A stretch of 64,000 nt of DNA from Candidatus Krumholzibacteriota bacterium (GTDB lineage: Bacteria; Krumholzibacteriota; Krumholzibacteriia; JAJRXK01), in contig CAVXTH010000009.1 of the NCBI GenBank assembly GCA_963764625.1, positions 480,001 through 544,000 on the forward strand, in the 5' to 3' direction. Below, one piece after another: positions 2,019 to 33,180 of the stretch. Each line of letters opens with the position of its first letter. The stretch's first letter is position 1. A model generated the notes under the pieces. The model made no database searches, was not told the origin of the DNA, and saw nothing but the letters and a program-made list of their open reading frames with translations. The position numbers and the translations under genes are program-made.

Positions 2019-2265
2019 ACGGATAGTGGATTGTATACGGCGCTTTAGCCGAAAAGCGAGCAACGACCTTCGAAACGGGTGCTCTTTGCGCTGTGTTCTC
2101 GGTGCGATGATCACCATGAGGATTGATCGTCGATCCGCGACTCACCCTACCGCAACTCTGTTCGCCCGACATGCGCCCACCTGAGCGGCTTCCACCTATC
2201 CTTGGGCACACCGTACCCCCGACGCTCGTGCTGTTGCGCATTCGTCGGGAGGCTGAGGGTACTGG
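2019..2265 (-). repeat. IS91/ISCR-like oriIS end, copy 1 (247 bp)
   Basis: Matches 17334 onward, starts ACGGATAGTGGATTGTATACGG, diverges after GAGGGTACTGG. Confidence 0.9.
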
Positions 2266-2483
2266 CTGACCAAGTCGGGCAGGCAGCGAAAGATCGGCAA
2301 GATCGTCAGCGGTGGAGGTTGTGCTCTGGTGGTTCTTGCGGTGAGCGTGGCGGTGCTGACTCTTCTGAGCTGGGTGAGTCTGTAGGCAACCGCGGCGGAG
2401 TTGAAGCGATTCGGATTTCGTCGCATAATGGAATGGTCGCGGCATATTGATTGATCTGCACATTTGCAAGGTTGGTAAAGCTC

Positions 2484-3059
2484 ATGAGATGTGGAATTGC
2501 CTGCGGGCTGTTACTCTCGTTGCTCCTTTTCCTCGCTCCGAGCACGAACGCACAGGATGTCCCGGGAAATGTCTTCTTGGGAGTGCCCTCAATTCTCACT
2601 CACTACGTGCTCGTGTGTCTTCCTCCCGAGGGGGGCGTCTACGCGCTCGCCACTGAACCGCTGGAGCCGGTGAAGTCGGTGCGCTTCCAGGTCACCTGGC
2701 CGGACGGAGTCGATCACGATCAGGGGAGCGTGATCTGGCCGGGCGCGGTCGATGTCTCCGAACCCGGTGACGACATCTGGGACATCGTGTTCGAGGAATG
2801 TCGCGACAAACCGGGCAGCACTCTGTACCTCGTGAACTACGGAGGGGTGGATTATTACGGTCAAAGGGGCTGGATGTGCCCGTATGGTGACGTGGTTCCC
2901 CGACCGGTGTGGACGCTGTGTTCCGGGGAAACCATCGAAGCCTCGCTCTTCGACATGGGCCCTTCCTGGGTGGATGGCTGTTCTCCTTTTGGAAACAACT
3001 TCTGCGAGGTCATCCCCGCCCAGGCGCAGAGCTGGGGCACCCTGAAGTCCAGCTACTGA
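2484..3059 (+). CDS. Secreted hypothetical protein with C-terminal SWGTLKSSY motif
   Basis: Signal peptide ending STNA-Q, ends AQAQSWGTLKSSY, duplicated with a frameshift near 20991. Confidence 0.7.
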   Translation: MRCGIACGLLLSLLLFLAPSTNAQDVPGNVFLGVPSILTHYVLVCLPPEGGVYALATEPLEPVKSVRFQVTWPDGVDHDQGSVIWPGAVDVSEPGDDIWDIVFEECRDKPGSTLYLVNYGGVDYYGQRGWMCPYGDVVPRPVWTLCSGETIEASLFDMGPSWVDGCSPFGNNFCEVIPAQAQSWGTLKSSY

Positions 3060-3079
3060 GAATGAAGTGGAGAGGATCG

Positions 3080-3418
3080 ATGGATCGCAAGAAGGCCGTT
3101 CGAGACTATTAGGAGTCCGCGCGCCCGGCGGGAGTCTACCGCGTGCAGCACACGCCGAGCGGCCGCACTCTTTTGGGATCCAGTCCCGATGCGCCGGCGA
3201 TGCTCAACCGCATTCGCTTTCAGTTGCAGACGAAGGGGCATCCCAATCGCAAGCTTCAGGCCGACTGGAATGCCGATGGCGCGGATGCCTTCACCTTCGA
3301 AGTCTTGGATCTGCTGCCGCCCACCGAGAACGAAGTGAAGGACCCGGCCGCAGAGTTGGCCGCTCTCGAGGAATTGTGGCAAGACAAACTGCAGATCGCG
3401 GAAGAGCTGCGCTACTAG
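3080..3418 (+). pseudogene. Small GIY-YIG-like protein with an in-frame TAG at 3110-3112
   Basis: MDRKKAVRDY*ESARPAGVYRVQH...; the second copy at 21586 has AAG at this codon. Confidence 0.65.
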
Positions 3419-3510
3419 TCTCGCCATGAACATTGACTGGCACGAAGAGGCCAGCTTCAGATAGGATTTCATTTCTAAACCACCGGCCACGTATTCCCAC
3501 GAGGGCAAGC

Positions 3511-4239
3511 ATGTCTGAAAGTTCCGTTGCTCGTTGGCCCCAGCACTACGCGCGTCTCTGTGGCTTCTTTTATCTGTACATCATCGTGGCCGGCATCTTC
3601 GCCGAACTCTTCGTTCGCGCGAAGCTCGTCATTCCGACCGACGCCGGCGCGACAGCCCACAACATCCTGAGCCACGAATCGCTGTTCCGGATTGGGTTTT
3701 CCGGCGAGATCCTGCATCTCTCCTTCGACGTCATGGTGGCAGTGATTCTGTACGCGTTGCTTCGCCCTGTCGATCGCAGCATTGCCCTCCTCGCCGCGTT
3801 CATGCGCTTTGCCTGTGATCTCATCTTGGCCGTGGCGAGCATGAGCCACTTCGCGGCATTGAAGCTCTTGCATGGAGGCGCTGCTCTCGAGTCCTTTTCC
3901 TCGGGACAACTGCATTCGCTCGCACTGTGGGTGATGAATCTTCACGGCGACGCCTATGCCATCAGTCTCGTCTTCTTCGGCTTCGCATGTCTCGCCCTGG
4001 GGCACCTTCTCTTTTACTCAGACTTTCTCCCCAAGGCCCTCGGTGTTCTGCTCGCTCTCGCCGGAGTCTGCTACCTCTTCACGAGCTTCGCCCAGTTCCT
4101 GGATCCGGCCTTCGCCCAGCGACTCTTTCCCGTCTTCTTCATTCCGTGCTTTGTGGGCGAGCTCGGCTTCGCGCTGTGGATGCTCGTGAAGGGCGTGAAA
4201 GTTGAAAAGTGGAGAGAGCGGGCGCTCGCGCAGGACTAA
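3511..4239 (+). CDS. DUF4386-like multi-pass membrane protein
   Basis: YARLCGFFYLYIIVAGIFAELFVR...ATAHNILSHESLFRIG...GELGFALWMLVKGV pattern typical of DUF4386. Confidence 0.8.
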   Translation: MSESSVARWPQHYARLCGFFYLYIIVAGIFAELFVRAKLVIPTDAGATAHNILSHESLFRIGFSGEILHLSFDVMVAVILYALLRPVDRSIALLAAFMRFACDLILAVASMSHFAALKLLHGGAALESFSSGQLHSLALWVMNLHGDAYAISLVFFGFACLALGHLLFYSDFLPKALGVLLALAGVCYLFTSFAQFLDPAFAQRLFPVFFIPCFVGELGFALWMLVKGVKVEKWRERALAQD

Positions 4240-4392
4240 ACCCCTAACGGGGCGGTTGGCGACAGACCCGTTGTCCGTCCAGGCTATCAACTCTTGACCG
4301 CCCGGGCAGAAGTGGTCCACGCTCAGCTCATCCGTCCCCTCCCCCTACAGGTCTTAGTTTACGCTTCGTGTGCTGCTCAGGAGGCATTGCCG

Positions 4393-4976
4393 TGACCAAA
4401 TTTCGTTGGGTGTTGTTGCTCGCTTTGATTCTCATGGGACTTTGGGCTCGTGAAGCTTCGGCTCAAGGACGACCCGATCCCGCAAAACTCATGGCGGCTC
4501 AGCGAGAGGCGATGAGCCGACTTGCCATCATGGATGGGGTGTGGAGGGGTGCCGCTTCGATCAGCATGGGTCCGGACGGGAAGCACGAAATCACCCAGAC
4601 AGAACGGGTTGGATCGTTCTTGGATGGTTCCGTGAAAGTCGTCGAGGGCCGCGGCTACGAGGCAGACGGCACGGTCAGTTTCAATGCGCTGGGCATCATC
4701 TCCTACGACCCTGAGTCCAAGAGTTACACGATGCATTCCTATGCGCAGGGGAATGTCGGTGACTTCGTATTGACTCCTACGGGCGATGGCTACAGCTGGG
4801 AGATCCCCGCTGGACCCATGAAGATAAAATACACGGCCACCATCAAGGATGGAACTTGGATCGAAACCGGAGACCGCGTATTGCCGGGCAAGGAGCCGGT
4901 GCGGTTCTTGGAGATGAAGCTCGAACGTGTCGGAGATACCGACTGGCCGTCCGCAAACGCAGTGAAGCCCCAGTGA
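4393..4976 (+). CDS. Secreted DUF1579-like protein
   Basis: Signal peptide, AQREAMSRLAIMDGVWRG...TQTERVGSFLDGSVKVVEGRGY. Confidence 0.7.
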
Positions 4977-5103
4977 GCGAGTGCGCCCTGCATGCTTCCG
5001 CGGAAGTGGCCGCGGGCCGGGGTCTTGTTCATATTCTGGTACGTAGAATTCCCGCCAGCGCGGGAAACGCAACAGATAACTCGGCCCCGAAAGGAGCTTC
5101 AGT

Positions 5104-5235
5104 ATGAAGCTGAGAAGCAAATTGTGGAGCGCTGCGCTTCTTCTCGTCGCAGTACTCTGGTCGATCGCCGCTTTCGCCAAGAACACTGACCAGAAGATCG
5201 TCGTCAAGGACGTCGGCTTTTCCACTCCCGAGTCG
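5104..5235 (+). pseudogene. 5' fragment of a secreted beta-propeller/SMP-30-like protein cut by repeat copy 2
   Basis: MKLRSKLWSAALLLVAVLWSIAAFAKNTDQKIVVKDVGFSTPES runs straight into the repeat. Confidence 0.6.
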
Positions 5236-5670
5236 ACGGATAGTGGATTGTATACGGCGCTTTAGCCGAAAAGCGAGCAACGACCTTCGAAACGGGTGCT
5301 CTTTGCGCTGTGTTCTCGGTGCGATGATCACCATGAGGATTGACCGTCGATCCGTGCCAGGTGTCTGAGAATCCGGTCCACCACCGCTGCTTCGTCGATC
5401 ACCGACACGATCTTCATGGTTCCCCCGCACTGCGGGCAGAGCATGGGGTCCAGCTCGAAGATCCTGCGCAGCAGGCGTGCCCAGCTGCGGCTGCGCGCAG
5501 TGGACGGTGCCCTGGCGATCGTCGCGTCCTGGGGGGTGGCTCTTGCCCCTCGGGCCCGGTGCGAGTACCAGCCGTAGTAACGGACCAGGTGCTGCCGTGG
5601 CGCGGGGATCTAGGCGCACAGACGGCGGATCATCTCCAGAACATCGAGTTCGAGATCACGTTGGCCGGTG
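5236..5670 (-). repeat. IS91/ISCR-like end, copy 2 (ori plus 3' piece of transposase, internal deletion)
   Basis: Same start motif, deletion at CGATCCG microhomology (5348-5354), identity to the full copy ends at TTGGCCGGTG. Confidence 0.9.
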
Positions 5671-5840
5671 AGGCGCTTGGTCAACTGTTTGAGGATGCCA
5701 TCGTTGCCGAGAAACTCCTCGGGCTTCTTGCCGGCGATGAGCTCATCGAGCAACTTGTCGGTAGGATCTGGCTTGGCCATGGCTCTTCTCCTTTGATAGA
5801 GTATAGTTCAAGGCCAGTTACACAGAAAAGCTTACAGTCT
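5671..5840 (-). mobile_element. IS256-family left end and transposase N-terminal fragment
   Basis: Minus strand from ATG 5780: MAKPDPTDKLLDELIAGKKPEEFLGNDGILKQLTKRLT; terminal AGACTGTAAGCTTTTCTGTGTAAC resembles IS256 IRs. Confidence 0.7.
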
Positions 5841-5872
5841 TGATAATGGAAGCTCAAACACGAGGATTGAAA

Positions 5873-6982
5873 ATGAAGCGAAATCACCTCTATTTCATTA
5901 TCACGCTGTTGCTTGTCGCGATGGCGGTCGTCGGCTGCTCTGACAACGGCACCGCCCCGGTGCTCGACAAGGGCCCGGCTATCACACGCGTTTGGATCGA
6001 GGGCGCGCTCAACGTATCCCTCGGTGGCACCACGGCCATGAAGGCCATGGTCATGTACGAGGACGGCACAACCCACGATGTCACCGAAGACGCCGCCTGG
6101 GACACGCTCGACCCCACCGTGGCTACCGCGGACAACGGCGTCGTGACAGCGGTCGACATCGGTGTCACCCAGGTGCGCATCCGCTACCGCGGCGTCACCT
6201 TCTCCGACTTTCTCGGTGTTCCGACGCGTGGGTATCCTCAGGGCTCCATCTCACTCGAGGGATACAGCGGGGTCGACCAGGCACTCCAGCTCAACCCCGG
6301 CGAGACCCGTCAGCTCAAGATCGAGATTCGATACCCCGACGCCACCACGCTCGACATCACCGACCGCGCGGTCTTCGACTCGTCCAACCCCGCCGCCATT
6401 TCCGTCGATCCATTCGGAGTGGCCACCGTCCACGTCGACCAGGGCGCGACCGAGCTCTGGATCGAGTACCGTGGCCAGTACGCGCAGTTCACACTGCAGG
6501 TGGGTGACCCCCTGCCCAAGCAGTACGAAGTCTATGTGGAAGCCGAAAGATTCGCGGCGCCCAATTCGTGCGACAGCGCCACCAACGCTGATGGCGGCGA
6601 CGGCGAATTCTGTTACCAGATCAACGTCGTTACGCCGACCGGCGACCGCCTGCTCGTCGCCGAGACCACCGACTATCCCAGCAAGGACCACGTCATCCAC
6701 GTTGACCAGAACGGATCGCTGACCCTCAACTCCGCGCAGCTCGGCCCGCTCCCACTCAGCGAAATCCAGGCCCTCGAGGTCGAAGTGCGCGTGACCGAGT
6801 GGGACCTGCAGTGGACCGACTTCGGCGACCCCATACACGATTCCGATATGGACGACAGGTCGGACAGCCGCGTCTATCGCGGCTCCGACGGCTTTTCGCC
6901 CGGCGTCCACACCATCAACCTCACCGGATCCGCCGACTGCGAAGTCGAGGTCAGCTTCCGCATCATCGCCGTCCAGCTGTAG
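5873..6982 (+). CDS. Lipoprotein with Big_2-type Ig-like domains
   Basis: Lipobox VVGC, two repeats of DGTTHDVT..A.W....P.VATA / DATTLDITDRAVFDSSNPAAISVD. Confidence 0.75.
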   Translation: MKRNHLYFIITLLLVAMAVVGCSDNGTAPVLDKGPAITRVWIEGALNVSLGGTTAMKAMVMYEDGTTHDVTEDAAWDTLDPTVATADNGVVTAVDIGVTQVRIRYRGVTFSDFLGVPTRGYPQGSISLEGYSGVDQALQLNPGETRQLKIEIRYPDATTLDITDRAVFDSSNPAAISVDPFGVATVHVDQGATELWIEYRGQYAQFTLQVGDPLPKQYEVYVEAERFAAPNSCDSATNADGGDGEFCYQINVVTPTGDRLLVAETTDYPSKDHVIHVDQNGSLTLNSAQLGPLPLSEIQALEVEVRVTEWDLQWTDFGDPIHDSDMDDRSDSRVYRGSDGFSPGVHTINLTGSADCEVEVSFRIIAVQL

Positions 6983-7020
6983 CCCCCACCCGGAAGGGCG
7001 CAGGAACGCAAGGGCCCCGT

Positions 7021-7119
7021 ACGGATAGTGGATTGTATACGGCGCTTTAGCCGACAAGCGAGCAACGACCTTCGAAACGGGTGCTCTTTGCGCTGTGTTC
7101 TCGGTGCGATGATCACCAT
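7021..7119 (-). repeat. IS91/ISCR-like oriIS end, copy 3 (99 bp, shortest)
   Basis: ACGGATAGTGG...GATGATCACCAT then unrelated sequence. Confidence 0.9.
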
Positions 7120-7194
7120 ATTGACCTTGGTGCGATGAAGAGTTTGAAGAAGCAGCAACAGATGAAAGGAGCCGCGGCCCTCTGGGGCCGCGGC

Positions 7195-8037
7195 CTGTCC
7201 CTGCCCCGAGTTCAATAAGCAAGTGCAACACTTCTGGCTTAGCGACTTCCGCGCTAGAATGCGCGGATTATGTCTAAACACTACAAGCACTTGTCCGAAG
7301 AGGAGCGGGATCGTCTGGCGATCCTCAAGGGCCAGGACCTGCCGATGAGAGCGATCGCGGCTCAACTCGGTCGGTCTCCCTCGACGATCTCACGGGAGCT
7401 GCGTCGTAACGCCTCCTCCGGCAGATCAAGCGGCTATCTGCCCCATAAAGCCCAAACCGAAGCCGACCTTCGTTGGAGGCAAAGTCATCGTCGGCTGCGT
7501 CTGAAAGCCCCCTTCCTGAGGTCATATGTCCGAATCGGTCTCAAACGAGGCTGGTCACCCGAGCAGATCGCCGGACGACTTCGATACGAAGGTCACTCGC
7601 TGACCGTCAGTCACGAAGCCATCTATCAATGGATCTACCTCGAGGCTAGGGAGCTGATCCCTCGGCTCGCCAAGTCTCACCGCAAACGACTACCGCGCCG
7701 GTATTGCAAACACTCCCGATTCCGTATCCCCAACAGGGTTTTCATCTCCGAACGCCCCCAGCATGTGCTTACACGGGAATAGCCAGGACACTGGGAGGTC
7801 GACACCGCCAACTCACCTCGCGGGACGGCGGCGCTCGCTGTTGCTGTCGAACGCAAGACTCGGTACATGAGGATCAAGGCCATCTCTCGAAAAACGGCTA
7901 TGGCGTTCCGCAAGTCGCTGGTTGAAAGTCTCGGCAGCTATCCCGACCACATCCGAGCGACAATCACTTACGATAACGGTGCAGAGAACACATGCCATTG
8001 CTGGGTCGATCGCGCCCTGGGCACTCAGGCGTACTAC
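7195..8037 (+). mobile_element. IS30-family element, defective (nonsense codon 7780-7782, 3' truncated); ORF starts 7270
   Basis: YKHLSEEER...RSPSTISRELRRN, WSPEQIAGRL, GHWEVD, TITYDNGAEN; similarity stops after TQAYY, before the expected third catalytic Glu. Confidence 0.85.
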
Positions 8038-8264
8038 GACGGCCCCATTCGTGACTCTCAGCAAAACAGAGACGCCGTGCTGCGCAAGTATTCGAAACGT
8101 GCCCGAATGTGGCAAACGAAAGGCCCACCTGCGGTGAGCGATACGGCCTGCGTTAAGAAAACGAGGCCACCTGATTAGGCGGCCTCGATAAGTGGCTCCC
8201 CTTTCGTGACTCGCAGCGAAAGGGTCTATGTTCGGGGGTTGACTAGGTCCGTAATCTCTGTGGC

Positions 8265-9416
8265 TCACTGGCCGCCGCGGAAGAGAGCCTTTAGTCCTCC
8301 GAAGCTTGTGGCCTCTGTGGGCACGGGAGCTCCTGCGAAGGGTTCGAAATCCGCGATTCCTGTCTCCAGAGCGGAGTCGTGATTGTCATAGATGCGCGCA
8401 GCGATCTCCGTAGGATCGGTTGTCCCCCAGTAGTTGTTCGTGAAGTCATAATGCCTGATCTCAGGCGCGGTATCTCCCGTCAAATAAGCCAGATATCCTT
8501 GTGAAGAAATTAAGTCGTTCTCGTTGACATGCACAGTGCTAGGCGAACCAATCCATATTCCGTATAACTGTGAATTCAGCAGCTCATTCTGATGAAGGTC
8601 TACCGTAGCGTAGTTGCTGATATCAACATGCCATCCATTGTTCTGAAGCGTGTTGTCAGCAACCGTCACCACGGTCCCGCTTTCTAACAATACGATCCCA
8701 GAGTACATGACATTTTCGATTGTGCAGTTCTCGATGAACCCCGGACAATTGTCAAATTGGATTCCTACACTACCTCCATTGATATGCGTGTAGCTGATCT
8801 GAGCTTCTTGCGGTGATCCTAGCGTAATTCCATATCCGACATTATCTGTCAACTCGCAATGGCTGATGCGAATCAGTCCCCCTGTAAATGGCACATGAAT
8901 GCCGTCCTCGTTGTTATGCATGATGCTATGATCAATCGTAAGGGGACCTTCCGGCTCAAAGCCAAATTTGCAGTATCGTGCCACACAATCCGCTATGTAG
9001 AAATCCCCTAGGGAGTACGCGCCCACCCAAGTGTTCTCAAATGTCATCTTTTCGATGTGAGTTACGCTGACGTTTTGGGCGACGACCAATCCCACGGGAT
9101 CTCCCTGGGCAGTGGTGGGTGCGGTAGGACCGATGATCACGGCATCTCGATCCGTCCCTATTATCGTCAGATTGTCTACCCGAACTACTAGATGCGCGTC
9201 GCGTCGTACGCCGCTGTTGAAATAGAACTCCGTGACTTCTTCATATCTTCCAGGTCCGATCAACAGAGTATCCCCCGCTGCTGCAGCGTCGGCTGCTGGC
9301 TGCAGCAGGGTATAATCTCCCGTGCCATTTTTCATCACGGTGATGGTATTGGACCAAGCCGCCGTCGAGAGGAGAAGTAGAGCCAAACTGAATGTGGCAA
9401 GGATGGAGTTGCGCAT
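8265..9416 (-). CDS. Secreted beta-helix (NosD-like) protein with C-terminal TSFGGLKALFR motif
   Basis: Signal peptide, GTGDY..LQPAADAAAAGDTLLIGPGRY, parallel beta-helix repeats, NNYWGT, visibly AT-richer than the core. Confidence 0.75.
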   Translation of the reverse strand: MRNSILATFSLALLLLSTAAWSNTITVMKNGTGDYTLLQPAADAAAAGDTLLIGPGRYEEVTEFYFNSGVRRDAHLVVRVDNLTIIGTDRDAVIIGPTAPTTAQGDPVGLVVAQNVSVTHIEKMTFENTWVGAYSLGDFYIADCVARYCKFGFEPEGPLTIDHSIMHNNEDGIHVPFTGGLIRISHCELTDNVGYGITLGSPQEAQISYTHINGGSVGIQFDNCPGFIENCTIENVMYSGIVLLESGTVVTVADNTLQNNGWHVDISNYATVDLHQNELLNSQLYGIWIGSPSTVHVNENDLISSQGYLAYLTGDTAPEIRHYDFTNNYWGTTDPTEIAARIYDNHDSALETGIADFEPFAGAPVPTEATSFGGLKALFRGGQ

Positions 9417-9475
9417 GCTGTTGCCTTCTCGAACTGCGGGTTGGGGCTATGGACCCCAACCCACTACTCCTACAG

Positions 9476-9620
9476 TTAACGCACGACCGTGACGCGTGTC
9501 TTGAGGTCCTTTCCGTCCGCCAACATCCGGACAAAATAGACTCCGCTGGAAACCTGGGTTCCAGCACTGTCCTGGCCTTTCCATTGTACCACATGGGGGC
9601 CCGGCCCAAAGACCTGGGGG
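9476..9620 (-). pseudogene. Orphan FlgD-Ig C-terminal fragment cut by IS3
   Basis: GPGPHVVQWKGQDSAGTQVSSGVYFVRMLADGKDLKTRVTVVR*. Confidence 0.7.
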
Positions 9621-9709
9621 TGCTTGCCGTCAGACTGATTGAGACAGATCCAAGCTAAAAATAGAGGACACTTCTGAGGTATCCTTAAGAACCCCAAAGG
9701 GAGTGTACC

Positions 9710-10072: not shown

Positions 10073-10074
10073 CG

Positions 10075-11100: not shown

Positions 11101-11139
11101 CAATCGGCGCAATTTGTCTCATTCAGTTGACGACGTACA

Positions 11140-15502: not shown

Positions 15503-15511
15503 GCATTCTTT

Positions 15512-17331: not shown

Positions 17332-17333
17332 CT

Positions 17334-24041: not shown

Positions 24042-24096
24042 TGAAAATGCGGCTTTAATCAGGCTGATGGCGGACTGACTGGTCCAGTCTCGCCAG

Positions 24097-24126
24097 GGCC
24101 CCGGGCGGAAGTCCGGGGCCTTTTCT
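24097..24126 (+). terminator. Rho-independent terminator
   Basis: GGCCCCGGGC-GGAA-GTCCGGGGCC followed by TTTTCT. Confidence 0.7.
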
Positions 24127-24268
24127 CGCGATTGCGAACCCAACAGAATTGAAAGCGACTTTCAGTTGCGAGGAAGATCGAAGTGCCGGCGGGCGAGGGT
24201 GGAGGTGTATACTGCATCCAGATTCCATCTGGGCTCCCTGTCATGAGTGAACACAGGAGGGTCCCGGT

Positions 24269-27049
24269 ATGTCCACTGCCTGGCGTGTCGGGAGCTGGTG
24301 TCATCGGCTCCGGCCGCTTCTACTCTACCTCCTCATTCCCCTTCTCATCCTCGGACCTCACGCCTCGAGTTCGCACGCGGCGAGTCCGGATTCCCTGGCC
24401 ACGCAGCCGGACACGGCAAACAGCAGCCACCTCCTGCGTGCCCGACTCGACAATGGGCTCCGGGTGGTAATCGTTCCAAAGCCGCAGGAAGTGCTCGTCC
24501 GAGCTCTCCTCCTCTACGATGCCGGTGCCTGTCGCGAGCCGGAGGGCAAGGGGGGACTCGCCCACCTCGTCGAGCACCTCATGTTCGCGAGCAGTGCCCC
24601 AAGACCCGACGAAAGCTTGCGTCAGCGACTGAGACTGCACGCGATCGACGATCGTGGCTGGACCAGCTCCTTTGCCATGGGCTACCAATGGGATTGTCTA
24701 CCAGAAGAGCTTCCCGTTTTGCTCGAGATCGAAGCCGAGCGGATGGCCGGTCTCGCGTTGAGTGAAGCGACCTTCGAACGGGAACGAAACGTCGTGTTGC
24801 GGGAGAAAGATTTCCGTGGCGAGAGAGACGCCTGGGAGGAATTGATCTCGAACTGCTACCGCGCCGCCTACAAGGGGCATCCGCTCGGACGCGATGTCTC
24901 CGGAACCGTCGAGTCCGTCTCGCAGCTCAGTCTGCAGGACGTGCGCGAGTTCCACGAGGAATACCTCCGGCCCGGTCGCGCGATCCTGGTGATCGAAGGG
25001 CCGGCGTCGCCCCAGATCGTCGTACGGCAAGTCCGCAAGAGCTTCGAGCCAGTACAGAAGCCCGGCTCGGGAACCGAGGCCACACTGCCTTCGCTTCCAA
25101 AGCTCGCGCACCACAGTGTGATCAGTGATCGACCCGATTTTCAGGGCTTCCAGGTTGCTTACGGATTGCGGACTCCAACCCGAACCCCGCACGACCTGGT
25201 CATGAACGCCATCCTGTGCGAATTGTTGGACTCCTGGGTGGGTGCGCTCAGTTCCTACTCCATGGGCAAAGAGAGGCTGCTCGTGGTCCATCGCTGGTAT
25301 TCTCGGTACTTCGCGGGCCCGGAGTTTGTCACCATGGAGGTCAACGCGGACTACGATGCCCAGGAGGCTCTGTCCTGGCTCTGGAACGACATCGTGAGGA
25401 GTGGCCGTCATCTGCGAAACAGGATCAGGTTTCCTGCCATCATCGAAGGGGCACGCCGACGACTTTCTCAGCACGGTTTGCGCTCCGGTTCGGATCTCAC
25501 GGATCTCGCCATGAACGAGCTGGCGGTCGGTCCCACCGCGTCGTTGAGCGTTTTGGACTCGATTCTATCGAAAGTCGACGAGGAAGATTGCCTGGAGTAC
25601 TTCCATCGCGCGATCAACAACGAGTGCAGCGTCAACACAGTCGTCCATGGCAAGGGATCCAAACGCAAGCTCGAGCTCAATACGGTGGGAATGGCCAGCG
25701 CGACCGCGCAGGACAGTACTGGCTACAAGCCGGCACCGAGTCCCGATCCGGAACGGCTCGAGGAACTCCTGCAACTCTACGAGCGCTGCGGTCTACCCAG
25801 GATGGAACGAGTCTCTCTGCCCGATCAGGGCAGCTTGTACTTGTGGGAGCAACCCGAGAGCCAGGAAATGCGTGTGGCGGGTCTGCGGTGTTTCCGCGGC
25901 CTTCGAGACCTCGAAGCCTCGGGTAAGCCGGGAATGAACGCGCTCTACAACGTCACGGCGTCCTATGCATCCAGGCGGGATGACCCGGATGAGGAACCGG
26001 AAATCTATCACCTTCCCTACGGAACCAGATTCCTTGCTGATGCCTTCGAGTACAACTTCTCGGCCCATGGCCGAAGCGAGGACCTGGACGGGATACTCTC
26101 CACTTTGTCAGAGCGGTTGAACAAGAAGGGGCTCGATGCCGCTGCGTGGGGAAGAACCTTGAGGCATGTCGATCTCTGGTTCGCGAAAGACTATGTGGAT
26201 GCGCAATTGCTCGCTCAACGGTATCGGCGCTCACTCGTCTTCGGTCCAGAGCATCCTTCTCGCTATTCCGAGATTTGCCCCCCCGAGACCTATGACAAGA
26301 TCAAATACAAAGACATCAGCAAATTCCACCAGAACCTCGCATCCCGGGATGGACTCCTGTGGTTCGCGAGCGGAAGAGTTGATTCGGCCCGGCTGGTTCG
26401 CGCTCTGCCGAAGCTGATCAAACGGGACAAGAAGCCGAAACTGATGGAAACCATCCCGGGCGCTCCTCCGCTGAAGCGGATCAGCGGTCGCATCTTTCCC
26501 GCATTCGAGTGCTCGGACGCAAGAGTCGTGCTGTCGTTGCCTGCGATCGACGTGTCCGCGGTGCCGAATGCCTGGGCCCACTGGGAGATTCTGCGGGCCA
26601 TGTTGCACCAGCAGCTCTTCCAAGAACTCCGCGAAAGGGAGAGCCTCGTCTACGTAGTCCAAGCGGACGAGGATCTCCAGGGAGACCGGTTCTCTCTCAC
26701 GATCAGCGCCAGCACGTCTCCCGAACGAGCGGAACGGGTATTCTCGATCCTGTGCGAGTTTCTGAAGAGAGTTCGATCACGCGCGGTCGAGGAGTCTCCC
26801 TTCCTGCTCGCCAAACTCGATGCAATCCACCATCTGCTGCGAGCAGAGGAAGATCCTGCTCTCGCTCTCGCCCGAATGGAGTGGATGGCGCGGTTCGGTC
26901 CCATACCAGAGAATCCCACTGAGGAACTCATCGATCTGGACCTGGCCTCCTTTCAGAGCTTCCTAAAACAGACCGTAAACCCGGACGCCTTCGTCTTCAC
27001 CGTCGTGGGCCCGATCCTGGAGGATGAGATCGAGAGTTTTACCTTCTGA
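24269..27049 (+). CDS. M16 (insulinase-like) zinc peptidase, large single chain
   Basis: LDNGLRVV, GLAHLVEHLMF (HxxEH), FERERNVVLRE, LFQELRERESLVY. Confidence 0.8.
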   Translation: MSTAWRVGSWCHRLRPLLLYLLIPLLILGPHASSSHAASPDSLATQPDTANSSHLLRARLDNGLRVVIVPKPQEVLVRALLLYDAGACREPEGKGGLAHLVEHLMFASSAPRPDESLRQRLRLHAIDDRGWTSSFAMGYQWDCLPEELPVLLEIEAERMAGLALSEATFERERNVVLREKDFRGERDAWEELISNCYRAAYKGHPLGRDVSGTVESVSQLSLQDVREFHEEYLRPGRAILVIEGPASPQIVVRQVRKSFEPVQKPGSGTEATLPSLPKLAHHSVISDRPDFQGFQVAYGLRTPTRTPHDLVMNAILCELLDSWVGALSSYSMGKERLLVVHRWYSRYFAGPEFVTMEVNADYDAQEALSWLWNDIVRSGRHLRNRIRFPAIIEGARRRLSQHGLRSGSDLTDLAMNELAVGPTASLSVLDSILSKVDEEDCLEYFHRAINNECSVNTVVHGKGSKRKLELNTVGMASATAQDSTGYKPAPSPDPERLEELLQLYERCGLPRMERVSLPDQGSLYLWEQPESQEMRVAGLRCFRGLRDLEASGKPGMNALYNVTASYASRRDDPDEEPEIYHLPYGTRFLADAFEYNFSAHGRSEDLDGILSTLSERLNKKGLDAAAWGRTLRHVDLWFAKDYVDAQLLAQRYRRSLVFGPEHPSRYSEICPPETYDKIKYKDISKFHQNLASRDGLLWFASGRVDSARLVRALPKLIKRDKKPKLMETIPGAPPLKRISGRIFPAFECSDARVVLSLPAIDVSAVPNAWAHWEILRAMLHQQLFQELRERESLVYVVQADEDLQGDRFSLTISASTSPERAERVFSILCEFLKRVRSRAVEESPFLLAKLDAIHHLLRAEEDPALALARMEWMARFGPIPENPTEELIDLDLASFQSFLKQTVNPDAFVFTVVGPILEDEIESFTF

Positions 27050-27103
27050 CTACCGCCTAGTCGCGGCGAACGTCATGGCTCTTCGATCAGGTCGAAACAA
27101 ACA

Positions 27104-27129
27104 AGCGCCCGGTGTCACCACCGGGCGCT
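27104..27129. terminator. Hairpin between convergent genes
   Basis: AGCGCCCGGTG-TCAC-CACCGGGCGCT, T-rich tail on the minus strand. Confidence 0.6.
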
Positions 27130-27156
27130 GTTGTCAGGTAGAGTATAGGACGGAGC

Positions 27157-27416
27157 TCAGCTCTTCTCCTTCATCTTCTCTTCCTTCTTCATCATCTTAG
27201 CCATCTCGGCCTTGTTCTTCTCGGCCCAGGCATGAAGCTCGGCGACGACCTTCGGATTGTCGGAGGTAATGACCGCGATATCGCCGTTCTTGGTTTGAAC
27301 GTCTTCGTAGTGGGCGCCCTTCATCATACAGTTGGTGAGCGCGGTACAGCTTCCGCACAGGGTCACGGCTTCACCGGCCTGAATCTTCTTTTGGCAAGCC
27401 GCCATATCCATATGGT
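27157..27416 (-). pseudogene. 3' fragment of a CxxC protein cut by copy 7
   Basis: ..MAACQKKIQAGEAVTLCGSCTAL...ITSDNPKVVAELHAWAEK; abuts the repeat with no upstream region. Confidence 0.55.
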
Positions 27417-28152
27417 CGGATAGTGGATTGTATACGGCGCTTTGGACGCCGAGCGAGCAACGACCTTCGAAACGGGTGCTCTTTGCGCTGTGTTCTCGGT
27501 GCGATGATCACCATGAGGATTGATCGTCGATCCGCGACTCACCCTACCGCAACTCTGTTCGCCCGACATGCGCCCACCTGAGCGGCTTCCACCTATCCTC
27601 GTGCGGGTCGTTGCCGCCGATCCGTGCCAGGTGTCTGAGAATCCGGTCCACCACCGCTGCTTCGTCGATCACCGACACGATCTTCATGGTTCCCCCGCAC
27701 TGCGGGCAGAGCATGGGGTCCACCTCGAAGATCCTGCGCAGCAGGCGTGCCCAGCTGCGGCTGCGCGCAGTGGAGGGTGCCCTGTCGATCATCGCGTCCT
27801 GGGGGTTGGCTCTTGCCCCTCGGGCCCGGTGCGAGTACCAGCCGTAGTATCTGACCAAATGCTGGCGCGGTGCGGGGATCTGGGCGCACAGACGGCGGAT
27901 CCTGCATGGATAGGGGAGGCCAGAGAGCATGGCAACACAACCCTTGTCGAGGTGGCACGGGCTCTTCAGGTGCATGTGATTTCGCGTAGACTTGGGCCGG
28001 CGATCAAGTTTGTTGAACTCGCGCCGTTACTCGTCCGTCGGAAGCCTGGGCGGCATCGTATAGTCGCGCCGTCGCCCCCTTGAAAAACTTCATCGAAGCC
28101 CATTGCACACTCATCTGTTTGTACTATATTGCATCTACGCACCGCCACCTTT
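27417..28152 (-). mobile_element. Non-autonomous mini IS91/ISCR element, copy 7 (736 bp)
   Basis: Ori end plus transposase 3' piece plus upstream region; two internal deletions shared with copy 8. Confidence 0.9.
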
Positions 28153-28271
28153 TCTTTGTCTGATCGTGCGGCGTTGCCAATGGGTGAATGGGAATGTGAT
28201 CCTTGAACTGCACATGCTGCGTGGGTTAAGCTCGATTTCGTTCCCCATCTCCCTCATTTCCGAGGACATTC

Positions 28272-28956
28272 ATGAACCGACTCAAGCCCGTATTGCGTGC
28301 CGTTGCATGTTTGGCCGCCCTTGCAGCATTCGGATCCTGCTCGGACAGCAAGAGCCCCACTGCCGGAAGCGGTACCTGCGGTGACGAAAGCGTACACTGC
28401 GTTTACGCGATCATTCATACCGCCGACTGGAGCACTGGTGTGGACTACCTCGGATCTAGACTGGACCAGACCGACTACTACGGTACCACCGATCTGCCGC
28501 TCGCGAACATCGAGGGCGTGTCTCCGGGAGACCAGATCTACGTCGGAATCACTCTGTCGCCCGCCCTGGTCGTCAGCAGCAACATACCTCCTGAGGTAGT
28601 CTTGCAGGTGGCCGGGGCACTCCTGGGTGGAAGCACGGATCTCGTGGTACAGACTGAACCGTCTATCTCGATGCGGGGTGACTGGCAGACCATACAGTAT
28701 CCGAGGGTCAATCTTCGCGGCAAGAGCGACGACAGGCAACTGTGACAGCATGAACGCAGAGTGGAGAGCGACGGGGTTGTCGGCGGGTGACGAGCTGCGC
28801 GGCTTTTCCCTCAGCTTCACGGTTCCCGAAACCTGGTCGAACGGTACGTCGATACGGGCAAGCCAGACCATTCCGGTCGAACGAATCGACTGGATCGCGT
28901 CACTCTCGGGTGATACCAGCGGGGAGGTCCCTCCCATCCAGTTGAAGGAGCGATGA
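28272..28956 (+). CDS. Putative lipoprotein, probably frameshifted near 28720
   Basis: MNRLKPVLRAVACLAALAAFGSC lipobox; ORF 28272-28745 appears to continue in the 28627-28956 frame. Confidence 0.5.
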
Positions 28957-31900
28957 TCAAAGAGGCGGTTGCCTGGCTCCATGACCTAACGCAGCAGAGG
29001 TGATCCGGCGGGTCTGTACCGTGCCGGGAATTTGCAGCCTTGCGAAGTAGGTGCCCGAAGCGAGCGCGGCTCCGCTGTCATCTCGTCCCGTCCAGCTGGC
29101 GCTGTGCGTTCCAGAAGTCTCCTCCTCGTCAACGAGTGTTGCGACCCGCCGGCCTCGCACGTCGAACACCTCGAGGCTCACGCGTCCTGCGCGTGGCAGC
29201 CGGTAGTTCAGAAGGGTTCGCCCGCCAAAGGGATTCGGGCTCGGGGGCGCGAACCAAAACTGCGTCGCCGCAATGGGCGTGGCCGCGGTGCCGAGAAGCG
29301 CTGTCCGCAGGTCTGTCTCGGTCAACGAGTTGTACGGAAGCCCGATCCAGGGACTGAATTCGAAATAGGGACTGCGCGAGCGAAAGCGCAGCCGCCAGTG
29401 ATACGCGGTCTCCGAAGTGGCACCGGTGACGGGCTGCTCGAGAGCGACCGCGCTCCCTGCCGAAGTGGGTGCACCCGTGTCGGTGTAGGGACCCCTCTGG
29501 AGCACCCCATCGAACGGGACTCCGACCGGCTTCACCTCGTATTCCATTTGGACTCTGGTACGTCCCGCCGGGCATCGGCCCAGCGCCTTTAGGGCCCAGG
29601 CGGTTTGGACGTTGGACGCGCCGAGCAAATCGATCGGGGCCGAACCGTCGTACTGCGCCTGGCGCGGTATCTTGGGGAGACCGTTGCCGTCGTTGCCAGG
29701 GTGCAGGTAGATCTGATCGAAGCCCCACTTGGTCACCAGCAAATCGGTAAAACCGTCTCCGTTCACGTCGCCGGCGGTGGCAACGACTTGGCCCATCGAA
29801 GCATCAGCCTGATTCGATTCGAAGAACCACTCGTCGCCGATCGGAGGAAAGCTCGACGGTGCGCCGAAGAATACCGTCACCTTCCCCTCGAATTGCTGGC
29901 CATGACTGTACCGCGGCGAGCCGACCACGATATCAGAATACCCGTCTCCATTCAGGTCGCCTGCGTAGCCAACCGAGAGCCCCAGATTCTCACCCAAAGT
30001 CCCCAGGCGACTCCAAGCCTCGTTTTCGTCGATCCCCGTTGGACCACCCAGGTGCACTTGCACGATTCCGTCGAGCGATTGACCCCCGAGCACGATGTCC
30101 GAGTATCCGTCACCGTTCAAATCGCCGGCACTATCCACCGCCACGAGATTGGTGCTGGGAGTGCTCAACCAACAATAGGCCTGGGGGATGAGTTGAAGCC
30201 CAGAGGGAGATCCGAGGTACACCATCGCCACTCCGCGGTTGTCGCCGAAACCGGAGAGCGTCCGAAAATTCCCGACGAGCACGTCAGAATACCCGTCGGC
30301 GTTGACATCTCCGGCGCTCGCCACCGTGTTTCCCACGCCCTCTCGCGTGACGGACCACGAGGGCGATGTCTCCAAACCGGTGGCGGACCCACGGAACAAA
30401 TATGCCGTGGAACTGCCAACCCCATCCGCTCCCACCAAGACGTCTCCGTAACCGTCTCCATCGACGTCGCCAGCATCCGAAACGGCAGATCCGAACAAGC
30501 TGTTCTGCGCGTCTCCCACTTTGGACCACGAGGACGTAATGGAGAGTCCACTCGGACCTCCGTCGAACTCGAAGACCTTCCCTTCACCACCTTGGCTGGC
30601 GTTGAAATCGGGGTCGCCCACCAGTACGTCGGTGTACCCGTCGCCGTTGACATCCCCAGCGAGCGAGACCGAAGCTCCATACGACTGAGGTGCCGCTCTG
30701 CGAGCTCGACCAGGAGGGACTCGTCGACAGCCCGTACGCAGTTCCCAGATACAGGCGGGCGCGCCCATGCCCGGACATGAAGTTGCTGTAGTTGGGGGCG
30801 CCGACGATGACGTCCGAATAGCCGTCGCCGTTCACGTCTCCCGCCGTCGAAGCCGCGTGTCCGTTGTCGGTATCGGCGGCTCCGTCCGAAGCGATCCAAC
30901 CGGGCGCCTCCGAGGGATATCGTTGTCCACCCGTAAAGACCCACGCTGTGCCGAGGTTGGAGTAGTTGGGACTCGTGAGATCGCGGTAGGGTTCTCCTAC
31001 GATGATCTCGGAGAAGCCATCCCCATTGACGTCTCCCGCGGTGCACACGGCGCTGCCGAATTGCGTATCGAAAGAGCCAGAAGTTCGTGTACAGGGGGAC
31101 GTCGAGGGTCCAGCGGAACTCCCGAAATACACGGAAATGTGTCCCTGGTATCCCGGTGCGCCCGGGCTGCCGACGATGATCTCGGCGTAGCCGTCGCCGT
31201 CAAGGTCACCTGCGGTGGACACTGCGATACCGTAACGCTGCCCGGTGACCACCCCGACCTGAGTCCAGACCGGCGTGGTGGCCAGACCAGTGGGACCTCC
31301 CAGATACACGTCGGCCCTGCCCACCACGTCGACTAAATTCGGTGTGTACTTGGGAGCACCCACGATCACGTCGGCGTAGCCGTCGCCATTGACGTCACCT
31401 GCAGTGCAAACCGAGGTGCCGAGTTGTGAACCCAAGCCCCCCGTGACGGACCAATTCTCCGTGCCTCCGATCCCAGAAGGGGATCCGTAATAGGCGAAGA
31501 CCTTGCCGTTGTCGTTGGCAGTGTTCCCGAACGCGTCGTAGCCCGGTGCTCCCACGAGGATGTCGTCATAGCCGTCGCCGTTGACATCGCCCGCAGTCGC
31601 TACCCAGCTGCCAAAATGTGCGCTTTCGGTCCAACCAAAGAGGACTGCATCGTAGGAAGTCGAAGGTCCACTGGGAGAGCCATAGTAGACATAGACTGCG
31701 CCAGACTCGGCCCCCAATAGACCGCCCCCGACACCACGGGCACCCACGACGACATCGGCATACCCATCGCCGTTGACGTCGCCAGCCGTGCATACCGAGC
31801 TGCCGAACAGGGCGCCGGCCAGGTTGATTTCGGCCGTCCAGTCGGGGCTGCCCGAGATCGGGTTGGGCGCGGTAGAGCCGAACCAGATGTAAGCGCGCCC

Positions 31901-32365
31901 TTCCCCAGATTCGCCGTTGGTGTATTGCCAGGCGCCGACGATGACGTCGTCGTAACCGTCGCCGTTGACATCGCCGGCCGCCGAAACCGAGTTTCCAAGA
32001 TTTTCGAAGTATTGGTCCCCAACGACACTACCACCGGTAGACCACAAGCCAGTGACCGAACCCAGCAAAACTTCGAAGTACCCCTCGTCGTAGAGTGGCC
32101 CACCGAAGTCGGCATCCGGAGCTGCCATGATGATGTCGCTGAATCCGTCACCATTGACATCACCGGCGGTCGCGACCGCTTTGCCAAAGTGTGCGTCGTT
32201 TTGGGTGAGACCGTAGTATGGACCGCTGTAATTCGGCAGGCAAGCAAGCTGGGCCAAAGCGGAGGAGTGCACGCAGACCGAGGTGATGGCAAGTGCAATG
32301 AGAATCAGAGGAACTCGCGAGCGGCTACCGGAGGTTGGGACCACGGACGCCAGGGTCGCACTCAT
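28957..32365 (-). pseudogene. FG-GAP (integrin-alpha) repeat protein with FlgD-Ig tail, frameshifted near 30690
   Basis: Many AGDVNGDGY.D..VGAP repeats over two frames, signal peptide after ATG 32365, PNPF...VFDVRGRRVATLVD tail. Confidence 0.85.
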
Positions 32366-32443
32366 GAGAGTACTCCCTTCGGGGGGGAGGGAAGGATCGT
32401 TGAATTGATCGTACGCGAATTCGACAGCCCACTTCCACCCGAA

Positions 32444-33180
32444 ACGGATAGTGGATTGTATACGGCGCTTTGGACGCAGAGCGAGCAACGACCTTCGAAA
32501 CGGGTGCTCTTTGCGCTGTGTTCTCGGTGCGATGATCACCATGAGGATTGATCGTCGATCCGCGACTCACCCTACCGCAACTCTGTTCGCCCGACATGCG
32601 CCCACCTGAGCGGCTTCCACCTATCCTCGTGCGGGTCGTTGCCGCCGATCCGTGCCAGGTGTCTGAGAATCCGGTCCACCACGGCTGCTTCGTCGATCAC
32701 CGACACGATCTTCATGGTTCCCCCGCACTGCGGGCAGAGCATGGGGTCCACCTCGAAGATCCTGTGCAGCAGGCGTGCCCAGCTGCGGCTGCGCGCAGTG
32801 GACGGTGCCCTGGCGATCGTCGCGTCCTGGGGGTTGGCTCTTGCCCCTCGGGCCCGGTGCGAGTACCAGCCGTAGTATCTGACCAAATGCTGGCGCGGTG
32901 CGGGGATCTGGGCGCACAGACGGCGGATCCTGCATGGATAGGGGAGGCCAGAGAGCATGGCAACACAACCCTTGTCGAGGTGGCACGGGCTCTTCAGGTG
33001 CATGTGATTTCGCGTAGACTTGGGCCGGCGATCAAGTTTGTTGAACTCGCGCCGTTACTCGTCCGTCGGAAGCCTGGGCGGCATCGTATAGTCGCGCCGT
33101 CGCCCCCTTGAAAAACTTCATCGAAGCCCATTGCACACTCATCTGTTTGTACTATATTGCATCTACGCACCGCCACCTTT
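32444..33180 (-). mobile_element. Non-autonomous mini IS91/ISCR element, copy 8; right border of the island
   Basis: Near-identical to copy 7 through GCACCGCCACCTTT. Confidence 0.9.

What the first reader, a model, noticed from the sequence alone, without database searches (positions are those of the whole stretch)
2019..33180. Array of eight co-oriented rolling-circle (IS91/ISCR) origin ends separating unrelated cargo: candidate integron-like gene-capture platform
Seen: eight copies in 31 kb, all in one orientation, starting at (A)CGGATAGTGGATTGTATACGGCGC (2019, 5236, 7021, 17334, 20526, 22613, 27417, 32444). They alternate with cargo blocks 2266-5235, 5671-7020, 7120-17333, 19124-20525, 20773-22612, 23893-27416 and 28153-32443. 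There is no copy in the 31 kb of core genes to the right, and only one copy has a full transposase. Known: IS91/ISCR elements carry oriIS downstream of tnp, lack IRs and TSDs, and mobilise flanking DNA. Inference: independent insertions would not be expected to cluster and co-orient like this, so the locus looks like a fixed chromosomal platform where one HUH transposase serially adds ori-cargo units, functionally like an integron but with no tyrosine integrase in the window.
Basis: partly seen in the sequence, partly recalled or inferred. Interest (0 to 1): 0.93.

Follow-up and report, generated by a model that had tools for sequence, protein, structure and literature searches.

The report
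Rolling-circle transposon ends stacked at one site
One spot in this bacterial chromosome holds a head-to-tail stack of start-ends of an IS91-type rolling-circle transposon, each followed by a different piece of captured DNA, which looks like a natural record of how such elements pick up and pile up foreign genes.

Summary
The 24-nt end occurs 8 times exactly, plus one degenerate copy at 35230. Genome-wide there are 12-13 copies, all on one strand, all within 41 kb of a 3.57-Mb genome.

The repeat is the origin (ori) end of an IS91-family element. One copy is full length (17333-19123). Two are 703-bp deletion derivatives. The rest keep ori and have lost the terminus (ter) side.

Two congeners have an empty site: the two flanking genes lie 4 nt and 152 nt apart. 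A third congener has its own co-oriented array there with mostly different cargo.

Read-through transposition is visible:
- Copies c4 and c7 carry 15 and 50 nt of the neighbouring HNH gene's promoter.
- A 2.1-kb ori-plus-cargo unit was copied and ends exactly at the next ori.
- One cargo is a 2971-bp chromosome fragment 98% identical to another species.
- Four mini-oris of 14-40 nt abut full oris.

Best reading: one-ended transposition products accrete at resident ori ends. It is not integron-like in function: cargo is often truncated, and there is no integrase and no shared promoter. Read-based tests were unavailable.

The parts
2019..2265 (+). c1: ori-end fragment, IS positions 2-248, ter side missing
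   Evidence: BLAST to the full copy; alignment
2266..5235 (.). Cargo of c1. A 2971-bp chromosomal fragment 98% identical to a congener's native locus. The genome's own paralogous locus on contig C5 is 76-83% identical. Holds a DUF4386 gene (3433-4239).
   Evidence: Pfam
5236..5670 (+). c2: ori-end fragment, IS 2-119 plus 305-631
5671..7019 (.). Cargo of c2: a 380-aa ORF with no family match. The block 5340-8035 is shared with the sister genome at 99.5%.
7020..7119 (+). c3: 100-nt ori miniature
7120..17332 (.). Cargo of c3. Holds an IS30-like HTH fragment, a beta-helix gene, an IS481-like rve transposase (10075-11100), a PT-HINT fragment, a beta-propeller gene, an IS66 element (13934-15502, minus strand) and an AIPR fragment (16255-17274, minus strand).
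   Evidence: Pfam and NCBIfam
17333..19123 (+). c4: the only full-length copy (1791 bp). Its last 15 nt or more are HNH-gene promoter DNA, so it is a read-through copy.
17588..18964 (-). IS91-family transposase ORF (458 aa as read; the family match starts at residue 66). Has an HPHVH (HUH-type) motif.
   Evidence: Pfam Y2_Tnp and Zn_Tnp_IS91; NCBIfam NF033538, 196 bits against a cut-off of 125; translation
19124..20525 (.). DNA right of c4: orphan ORFs with no relatives in 208 genomes of the phylum
20526..22612 (+). c5 unit: IS 2-248 plus 1840 bp. A copy of 2019-4110 with 23 differences. It starts exactly at ori, ends exactly at the ori of c6, and cuts the DUF4386 gene.
22613..23892 (+). c6: IS 2-1281, with a 313-aa transposase remnant (22867-23808, minus strand)
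23893..27416 (.). Cargo of c6. It starts inside what I read by eye as a gene's C-terminal (FlgD_ig-like) sorting domain; no search was run on that piece. Holds an M16 peptidase (24269-27049).
27417..28152 (+). c7: 703-bp two-ended deletion derivative plus 35 bp of HNH-upstream DNA. 99.2% identical to c8 plus its flank.
28153..32443 (.). DNA between c7 and c8: FG-GAP repeat gene(s) on the minus strand. A paralogue on contig C7 is 74% identical in DNA.
32444..33145 (+). c8: 703-bp derivative at the position of the old master copy. The sister genome's second haplotype has a full-length copy here.
33157..35193 (+). HNH-domain gene (678 aa) lying between c8 and c9. It has its own conserved promoter. 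In other congeners it is not next to the dehydrogenase gene.
35230..35327 (+). c9: degenerate ~98-nt ori miniature at the right edge of the island
35332..36963 (-). Aldehyde-dehydrogenase (pruA-like) gene: the conserved right flank
   Evidence: Pfam; synteny

Best explanation
**What it is.** The repeat is the ori end of an IS91-family rolling-circle insertion sequence of a Candidatus Krumholzibacteriota bacterium.

**How transposition runs.** It starts at a nick at the left edge of (A)CGGATAG and runs rightward, antisense to the transposase gene, towards ter. Termination is sloppy:
- It may stop early, giving ori-only miniatures.
- It may run past ter, giving ori-IS-flank units.
- Copies that have lost ter always carry off the DNA to their right.

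**How the array forms.** These ori-led products are put back next to an ori that is already in the chromosome. Two routes fit, and I cannot tell them apart:
- The transposase uses a resident ori nick site as its target.
- A closed circle recombines with a resident copy through ori homology.

Repetition has built a head-to-tail, co-oriented stack of ori-plus-cargo units in the spacer between two convergent core genes. Related species exchange parts of this stack.

**Shown:** the family, the polarity, read-through, unit copying, foreign origin of one cargo, confinement to one locus, and the empty site.

**Inferred:** the nick position, the accretion step and its catalyst.
For: **Family.** Pfam Y2_Tnp and Zn_Tnp_IS91 match. 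The NCBIfam IS91 equivalog scores 196 bits against a cut-off of 125. There are no terminal inverted repeats and no target duplications.

**Polarity and read-through.** The last nucleotides of c4 (TTGCACACTCATCTG), and 35 more in c7, are the -35 and spacer of the HNH gene's own promoter. The same promoter stands upstream of HNH paralogues where there is no IS, at G000:C3 and in an IS-free congener.

**Unit mobility.** Region 20526-22612 copies 2019-4110 from the exact ori edge and stops at the ori of c6, inside a gene.

**Foreign cargo.** Region 2265-5235 is 98% identical over all 2971 bp to an internal piece of G003's native locus. G000's own locus is 76-83% identical. Both ends of the fragment coincide with IS-derived edges.

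**Ori-edge joining.** Four mini-oris of 40, 38, 28 and 14 nt directly abut full oris in two genomes. No solitary mini-ori was found elsewhere.

**One locus.** All 13 of 13 ori hits lie within 41 kb on one strand. The pattern search gives 12 forward and 0 reverse.

**Synteny.**
- The site is empty in G004 (4-nt spacer) and G001 (152 nt).
- G002 has 10 co-oriented oris at the same site with mostly different cargo.
- The same c2 unit has different left neighbours in G000 and G002, with the break exactly at ori.

**Published behaviour.**
- IS801 yields 229-, 360- and 679-nt ori-end miniatures and carries 290-1431 nt of flank (PMC3189936; I read passages).
- IS91 makes single-strand circles and one-ended events (PMC13181058; I read the abstract and passages).
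Against: - c4 and c7 are followed by non-ori DNA, so not every product landed at an ori edge.
- The junctions between a truncated IS and its cargo (IS positions 100, 248, 457, 537, 631 and 1281) show no common tetranucleotide. They need an earlier step in a donor, which I infer and did not observe. G003, the species closest to the cargo donor, has no copy of the IS.
- G002 has a diverged copy among ordinary genes on another contig and a few ori-less fragments.
- More distant relatives of the element in G005 and G008 lie on several contigs.
- The island's left 3.6 kb (C9:470416-474036) has no ori at its left end.
- No reads could be examined, so no circle, no junction support and no activity is shown.
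Confidence: 0.55

Rival explanations
1. This is an ordinary IS hotspot and graveyard. A genomic island tolerated many independent insertions of the element, full or miniature. They share one orientation because of strand bias at the replication fork. Later deletions and homologous recombination between copies trimmed the ter sides and shuffled blocks. No ori-directed step is involved.
For: - The island also holds IS66, IS481-like and IS30-like elements and truncated genes.
- Identity between copies is mosaic. For example, c4 is 93% identical to c8 at ori but 99% at ter.
- The + strand is G-rich in 52 of 56 20-kb bins of the contig, so a strand bias is conceivable.
- The IS801 study judged most natural fragments to be products of reorganisation rather than one-ended transposition (PMC3189936; I read passages).
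- c4 and c7 look like plain insertions.
Against: - Strand bias does not explain 13 of 13 copies in 1.2% of the genome.
- Both ends of the G003-like fragment coincide with IS edges.
- The c5 unit ends exactly at the next ori.
- Four mini-oris sit exactly at ori edges.
- In G000, no IS fragment lacks ori apart from the partial copy at C9:474037. Random deletion would lose ori as often as ter.
Confidence: 0.3
2. This is a true cassette system, the strong form of the reader's idea. The ori end acts as a site-specific recombination site. Units excise as ori-cargo circles and re-insert at any ori. The array is maintained because it supplies adaptive genes.
For: - The architecture matches: one locus, co-orientation, and different content at the same site in a sister species.
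- Unit copying is seen.
- Six of 11 oris have a minus-strand ORF starting within 160 bp to their left.
Against: - Cargo genes are often cut: the DUF4386 gene in the c5 unit, the gene fragment right of c6, and the AIPR and PT-HINT fragments.
- One cargo gene carries its own promoter.
- No promoter-like site was found in the element.
Confidence: 0.1
3. This is an assembly artefact: a chimera built by joining unrelated contigs through a shared repeat.
For: - The genome is a metagenome-type assembly of 9 contigs.
- The two copies of the 2.1-kb unit differ by 7 single-base indels, which may be consensus errors.
Against: - The repeats are short, mostly 100-700 bp, inside a 1.13-Mb contig.
- An independent assembly (G002) and a metagenome contig (L031) show the same kind of array at the same flank.
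- The block c2-cargo-c3 is found intact at 99.5% identity in G002.
Confidence: 0.03

Closest known systems
IS91 family insertion sequences (IS91, IS801, IS1294) and their one-ended transposition
   Same: - The transposase is an HUH type with a zinc-binding N-terminus.
- Ori lies downstream of the gene, and the two ends are different.
- There are no inverted repeats and no target duplication.
- Ori-end miniatures and transduction of DNA beyond ter both occur.

   Basis: PMC3189936 and PMC13181058 (passages read).
   Different: - No CTTG/GTTC-type tetranucleotide lies beside ori.
- All copies sit at one chromosomal site in one orientation.
- Mini-oris abut full oris.
- The host is an uncultivated phylum.
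ISCR elements, including tandem ISCR-resistance-gene units on plasmids
   Same: - Gene capture occurs next to a rolling-circle element.
- Copies have lost ter.
- Co-oriented repeats of IS-plus-cargo units occur.

   Basis: PMC10819877 and PMC7190383 (search listings only); PMC13393415 (passages read).
   Different: - From the titles and abstracts in that listing, the known tandem arrays repeat one unit. Here each unit differs.
- The ISCR clade model scores 182 bits against a cut-off of 925.
- There is no link to a class 1 integron.
Integron cassette arrays
   Same: - One fixed chromosomal site.
- Co-oriented units bounded by a repeated site.
- Content differs between close relatives.
   Different: - No tyrosine integrase.
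- The boundary is a transposon ori.
- Units are of arbitrary length and often cut genes.
- No common promoter.
Helitrons of eukaryotes (gene-fragment capture by end bypass)
   Same: - A rolling-circle HUH element that picks up flanking gene fragments by missing its 3' end.
- It forms new 3' ends.

   Basis: PMC4778049 (abstract seen in the search listings).
   Different: - No helicase domain was found in the transposase.
- The host is bacterial.
- The products stack at one locus.

Membership tests
IS91 family | Transposase with the IS91-type HUH catalytic domain and an N-terminal zinc-binding domain | tested here: met
   Pfam PF04986 (E = 5.8e-26) and PF14319 (E = 4.2e-21) match. NCBIfam NF033538 (equivalog) scores 196.4 bits against a cut-off of 125. 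The HPHVH motif is visible in the translation. Whether there are one or two catalytic tyrosines was not settled; I see only ...ARYITR..., and the motif itself is recalled, not tested.
IS91 family | Two different ends, with no terminal inverted repeats | tested here: met
   None of the 25 longest of 39 inverted pairs in 17333-19123 joins the two termini.
IS91 family | No target-site duplication | tested here: met
   The flanks of c4, c7 and the other copies share no direct repeat.
IS91 family | Ori downstream of the transposase gene; transposition runs from ori to ter and can run on (one-ended transposition) | tested here: met
   - The ori edge lies 254 bp beyond the stop codon.
- c4 and c7 carry HNH-promoter DNA beyond ter.
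- The c5 unit is an ori-led copy.
IS91 family | Conserved target tetranucleotide (CTTG, GTTC or similar) next to ori | tested here: not met
   The 11 left flanks show no such consensus. The invariant (A/T)CGG could itself be a target word, which would leave this inconclusive. It is included in the mini-ori duplications.
IS91 family | Single-strand circular intermediates | not testable with these tools
ISCR subgroup | Transposase within the ISCR clade | tested here: not met
   NF052416 scores 182 bits against a cut-off of 925, over the N-terminal half only.
Integron | IntI tyrosine recombinase beside the array | tested here: not met
   PF00589 gives 6 matches in the genome, on contigs C6 and C2, and none on C9.
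Integron | Promoterless single-gene cassettes read from one common promoter | tested here: not met
   - Cargo includes other IS elements and truncated genes.
- One cargo gene has its own promoter.
- No promoter-like site was found in the repeat.
Integron | attC-type recombination sites at cassette ends | not tested
   No attC model was run. The only shared boundary sequence found is the IS91-type ori.
Helitron | Rep domain fused to a helicase | tested here: not met
   Only Y2_Tnp and Zn_Tnp_IS91 were found in the 458-aa protein.

The most novel reading that the evidence does not exclude
The ori end of this IS91-family element doubles as the preferred insertion or termination site of its own HUH transposase. 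Ori-led DNA circles of any content would then be stitched in next to a resident ori. This would make a heritable, exchangeable, integrase-free capture array: a third way, besides integrons and composite transposons, in which bacteria stack foreign DNA at one address. The 14-40-nt mini-oris would be footprints of that reaction.
Probability: 0.3. Interest if true: 0.85.

Novelty: new variant of a known kind. Interest (0 to 1): 0.66.

Why it matters
How IS91 and ISCR elements gather genes is still argued. ISCR transposition has not been shown experimentally (PMC13393415, passage read). For IS801, most natural fragments were put down to recombination (PMC3189936, passage read).

This locus is a natural record with unusually clear footprints:
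- read-through copies that carry a neighbour's promoter;
- a copied ori-plus-cargo unit;
- a cargo whose donor species can be named by handle (G003);
- mini-oris at ori edges;
- an empty site in congeners.

It yields a direct, testable claim: a resident ori attracts new ori-led units. It also suggests a simple assay. If the claim is true, it would explain why such elements build complex resistance regions. It would also show that chromosome fragments of related species are traded this way in an uncultivated phylum.

Tried and rejected
**Secondary structure of the ori end.** RNAalifold on 9 copies gave 27 pairs, but only 1 had a compensatory change. The copies are too alike to test a structure, so I make no claim.

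**Promoter or terminator in the element.** The simple scan found 0 of each.

**Was c4 a plain insertion into an AIPR gene?** The ORF to its right (19441-20367, minus strand) has no Pfam or NCBIfam family. It has no relative in 208 genomes of the phylum. The protein atlas gave only unnamed look-alikes at 0.91. The question stays open.

**Empty sites for c4 and its right flank.** Region 19124-20525 has no match in G001-G004.

**Donors for the sister genome's cargo.** Searches with 40 kb of its array found only IS elements, the shared block and the flanks.

**Common end motif at truncation points and cargo ends.** None was seen.

**Metagenome scan.** It gave 7 short contigs:
- One (L026) is a chance match.
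- L031 shows 3 co-oriented oris next to the same left flank.
- The rest are too short to help.

**Integron reading in the strict sense.** Rejected, because there is no integrase.

**Paper supplements.** They were not opened. The supplementary tables of PMC13181058 (target and cleavage sites) might bear on the tetranucleotide question.

**Literature searches.** Searches turned up no description of a single-locus, co-oriented array of different ori-cargo units for an IS91-family element. That is four word searches of an open-access library, not proof of absence.

Full report
**1. The observation**

The 24-nt word occurs 8 times exactly on the + strand, at the stated places. A ninth copy with 3 mismatches lies at 35231. 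None was expected in 100 shuffles. The copies share a sharp left edge, (A/T)CGGATAG, with unrelated DNA to the left. They extend rightward for different lengths.

The window is G000:C9:480001-544000, in a 3.57-Mb genome of 9 contigs.

BLAST of the longest copy against the whole genome finds every piece on C9 between 475989 and 513145, all in + orientation. Two of these copies lie just left of the window.

A profile of 11 ori ends finds 13 hits with E of 2.6e-4 or better, all + strand, between C9:474037 and 515327. The next hits have E of 2.2 or worse.

The pattern with up to 3 mismatches gives 12 forward and 0 reverse in G000. It gives 0 forward and 13 reverse in one congener, G002. It gives nothing in the other 206 of 208 genomes of the phylum.

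**2. What the repeat is**

The longest copy is 17333-19123 (1791 bp). It holds a 458-aa ORF on the minus strand. The ORF matches Pfam Y2_Tnp and Zn_Tnp_IS91. It passes NCBIfam's IS91 equivalog at 196 bits against a cut-off of 125, and fails the ISCR clade model at 182 against 925.

The repeat edge lies 254 bp downstream of the stop codon. In IS91-family elements that is the oriIS side (PMC13181058, passages read). There are no terminal inverted repeats and no target duplications.

Copies mapped onto the full element:

| Copy | IS positions kept |
|---|---|
| c-2 (left of window) | 2-185, 288-457 |
| mini-ori | 1-40 |
| c-1 (left of window) | 2-185, 288-537 |
| c1 | 2-248 |
| c2 | 2-119, 305-631 |
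| c3 | 1-100 |
| c4 | full |
| c5 | 2-248 |
| c6 | 2-1281 |
| c7, c8 | 2-185, 288-592, 1574-1791 (703-bp two-ended derivatives) |
| c9 | about 1-98, degenerate |

In G000 every IS piece belongs to a copy that begins at ori. The one exception is the partial hit at C9:474037.

**3. Polarity and read-through, read from the sequence**

The last nucleotides of c4 (…TTGCACACTCATCTG), and 35 further nucleotides in c7 and c8, align with the region upstream of HNH-gene paralogues that have no IS nearby. One paralogue is at G000:C3 near 6480. Another is in G003, a congener without the element. There, these nucleotides form a conserved TTGACA/TTGCAC – 16-17 nt – TAT(A/T)(T/C)T promoter.

So the true ter lies further in. 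c4 and c7 are copies that began at ori at the c8 position and ran 15 nt or more, and 50 nt or more, into the HNH promoter. This fixes the direction as ori on the left and ter on the right. It also shows one-ended transposition, including that of a non-autonomous 703-bp derivative.

**4. Units that moved**

Region 20526-22612 is a copy of 2019-4110, with 16 substitutions and 7 single-base indels in about 2090 nt.
- It begins exactly at the ori edge, with a different left flank.
- It ends inside the DUF4386 gene, exactly where the ori of c6 begins.
- The source continues collinearly past that point, so the source is the original.

The cargo of c1 (2265-5235) is 98% identical over all 2971 bp to G003:C20:89359-92329.
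- That stretch is an internal piece of G003's native locus. The locus is syntenic with G000's own contig C5 locus, which is only 76-83% identical.
- The fragment's left end joins IS position 248, and its right end joins the ori of c2.
- It is therefore a chromosome fragment from a G003-like species.

Other cargo has diverged paralogues in the genome or in congeners.

**5. Mini-oris**

Ori pieces of 40 nt (G000) and of 38, 28 and 14 nt (G002) stand directly in front of full oris. No such piece stands alone anywhere. They are what one expects if a short nascent or displaced strand is joined to a nicked ori edge.

**6. The locus in relatives**

| Genome or contig | State of the site |
|---|---|
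| G004 | Empty. The stop codons of the two convergent flank genes are 4 nt apart. |
| G001 | Empty. The stop codons are 152 nt apart. |
| G002, contig C9 | Array of 10 co-oriented oris between the same flanks, cargo mostly different. |
| G002, contig C8 | A second version of the right flank, ending in a full-length copy next to the HNH gene. |
| L031 (metagenome contig) | 3 co-oriented oris beside the same left flank. |

- In G000 the two flank genes are 44.9 kb apart. c9 abuts the right-hand gene.
- In G001, G003 and G004 the HNH gene lies elsewhere.
- G002 shares the block 5340-8035 at 99.5% identity and an IS66 at 100%. Its flanks are 77-93% identical.
- The shared c2 unit has different left neighbours in G000 and G002, with the break at the ori edge.
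- The G002:C8 contig stops inside the array.
- A genus further away (G005) has clusters of mostly co-oriented fragments of related elements. In one 16-kb stretch, 5 of 6 are on one strand. Its ori-edge motif is alike: GGATA-N3-G-N-TT-N-TAT.

**7. Best reading**

Known IS91-family reactions account for the miniatures and for the ori-plus-cargo units. These reactions are early termination, read-through and circle formation (PMC3189936 and PMC13181058, passages read).

What is new is where the products end up: next to resident oris, at one address, in one orientation. Either the transposase uses a resident ori nick site as its target, or closed circles integrate by homologous recombination with a resident ori. 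The two give the same sequence outcome. The first 96 nt of c5 and c6 are identical, so no crossover trace can be read.

The + strand is G-rich in 52 of 56 20-kb bins of the contig. The ori-led strand is therefore the one that would serve as lagging-strand template. This fits single-strand chemistry but proves nothing.

**8. Evidence against, and limits**

- c4 and c7 are followed by non-ori DNA.
- The IS|cargo joints have no common motif and require an unseen donor step.
- G003 itself has no IS.
- G002 has a diverged copy among peptidase genes on another contig and several ori-less fragments.
- The left 3.6 kb of the island has no ori at its left.
- Cargo is often broken and includes three other IS families. 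There is no integrase on the contig and no promoter-like site in the element. The integron analogy is therefore architectural only.

**9. Verdict**

This is a single-locus stack of ori-led capture units of an IS91-family element. It is not shown to be a transposase-run cassette platform, and it is not integron-like in function.

It is a new variant of a known kind. It is of clear interest to mobile-DNA specialists because it offers a testable mechanism for gene gathering by rolling-circle elements.

Noticed in passing
window 33157-35193; also G000:C3:6482-8610 and G000:C1:5385-7220: A 678-aa protein with only a weak HNH match (Pfam E = 3e-4; IscB HNH region 34.6 bits against a cut-off of 175) belongs to a multi-copy family in this genus. 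The family has a conserved promoter. Its function is unknown.
   Followed up: partly
window 13883-16258: An IS66 element is 100% identical over 2376 bp to a copy in the sister species, whose core flanks are 77-93% identical. An IS481-like element (9621-11140) is 98.6% identical. This points to very recent exchange of mobile DNA between the two species.
   Followed up: partly
window 16255-17274 (minus strand): A 339-aa AIPR-domain ORF aligns only to positions 238-384 of the 593-position MzaE (anti-phage) model, so it appears to lack its N-terminal part. Its start lies 59 bp from the ori of c4.
   Followed up: partly
window 28957-32542 (minus strand): The FG-GAP repeat gene is split into two overlapping ORFs of 603 and 652 aa. 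Its paralogue on contig C7 is one 1176-aa ORF. This is a frameshift or a consensus error. The upstream ORF's start codon lies inside the ori of c8.
   Followed up: no
window 7195-7453 and 11140-11398: A 259-bp inverted repeat (99.6% identical) brackets the beta-helix genes and the IS481-like element. It matches the IS30-like element, which also has two copies in the sister genome.
   Followed up: no
window 11773-12375: A 200-aa ORF has a pretoxin-HINT domain only. It looks like a stranded piece of a polymorphic-toxin gene.
   Followed up: no
G002:C8:489001-502376 (L017) against G002:C9: The sister assembly holds two versions of the HNH-dehydrogenase flank, 85.6% and 88-97% identical to G000. 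Its stated contamination is 7%, so it may mix two strains or species.
   Followed up: partly
window 17531-17566: A 16-nt-stem, 4-nt-loop inverted repeat lies inside the element at IS positions 199-234, just before the point (248) where c1 and c5 are cut off.
   Followed up: no
G005:C28:8001-28000 (L039) and G005:C6:1-20000 (L040): There are clusters of mostly co-oriented fragments of related IS91-like elements (transposase 50-66% identical) in another genus of the same family. Several keep the ori-proximal end of the gene.
   Followed up: partly
L032:14334-14337 (G004 empty site): The 4-nt spacer between the two convergent genes at the empty site reads CTCG. This is the word reported as the IS91 terIS cleavage site and a minor target (PMC13181058, passage read). 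It may be coincidence.
   Followed up: no
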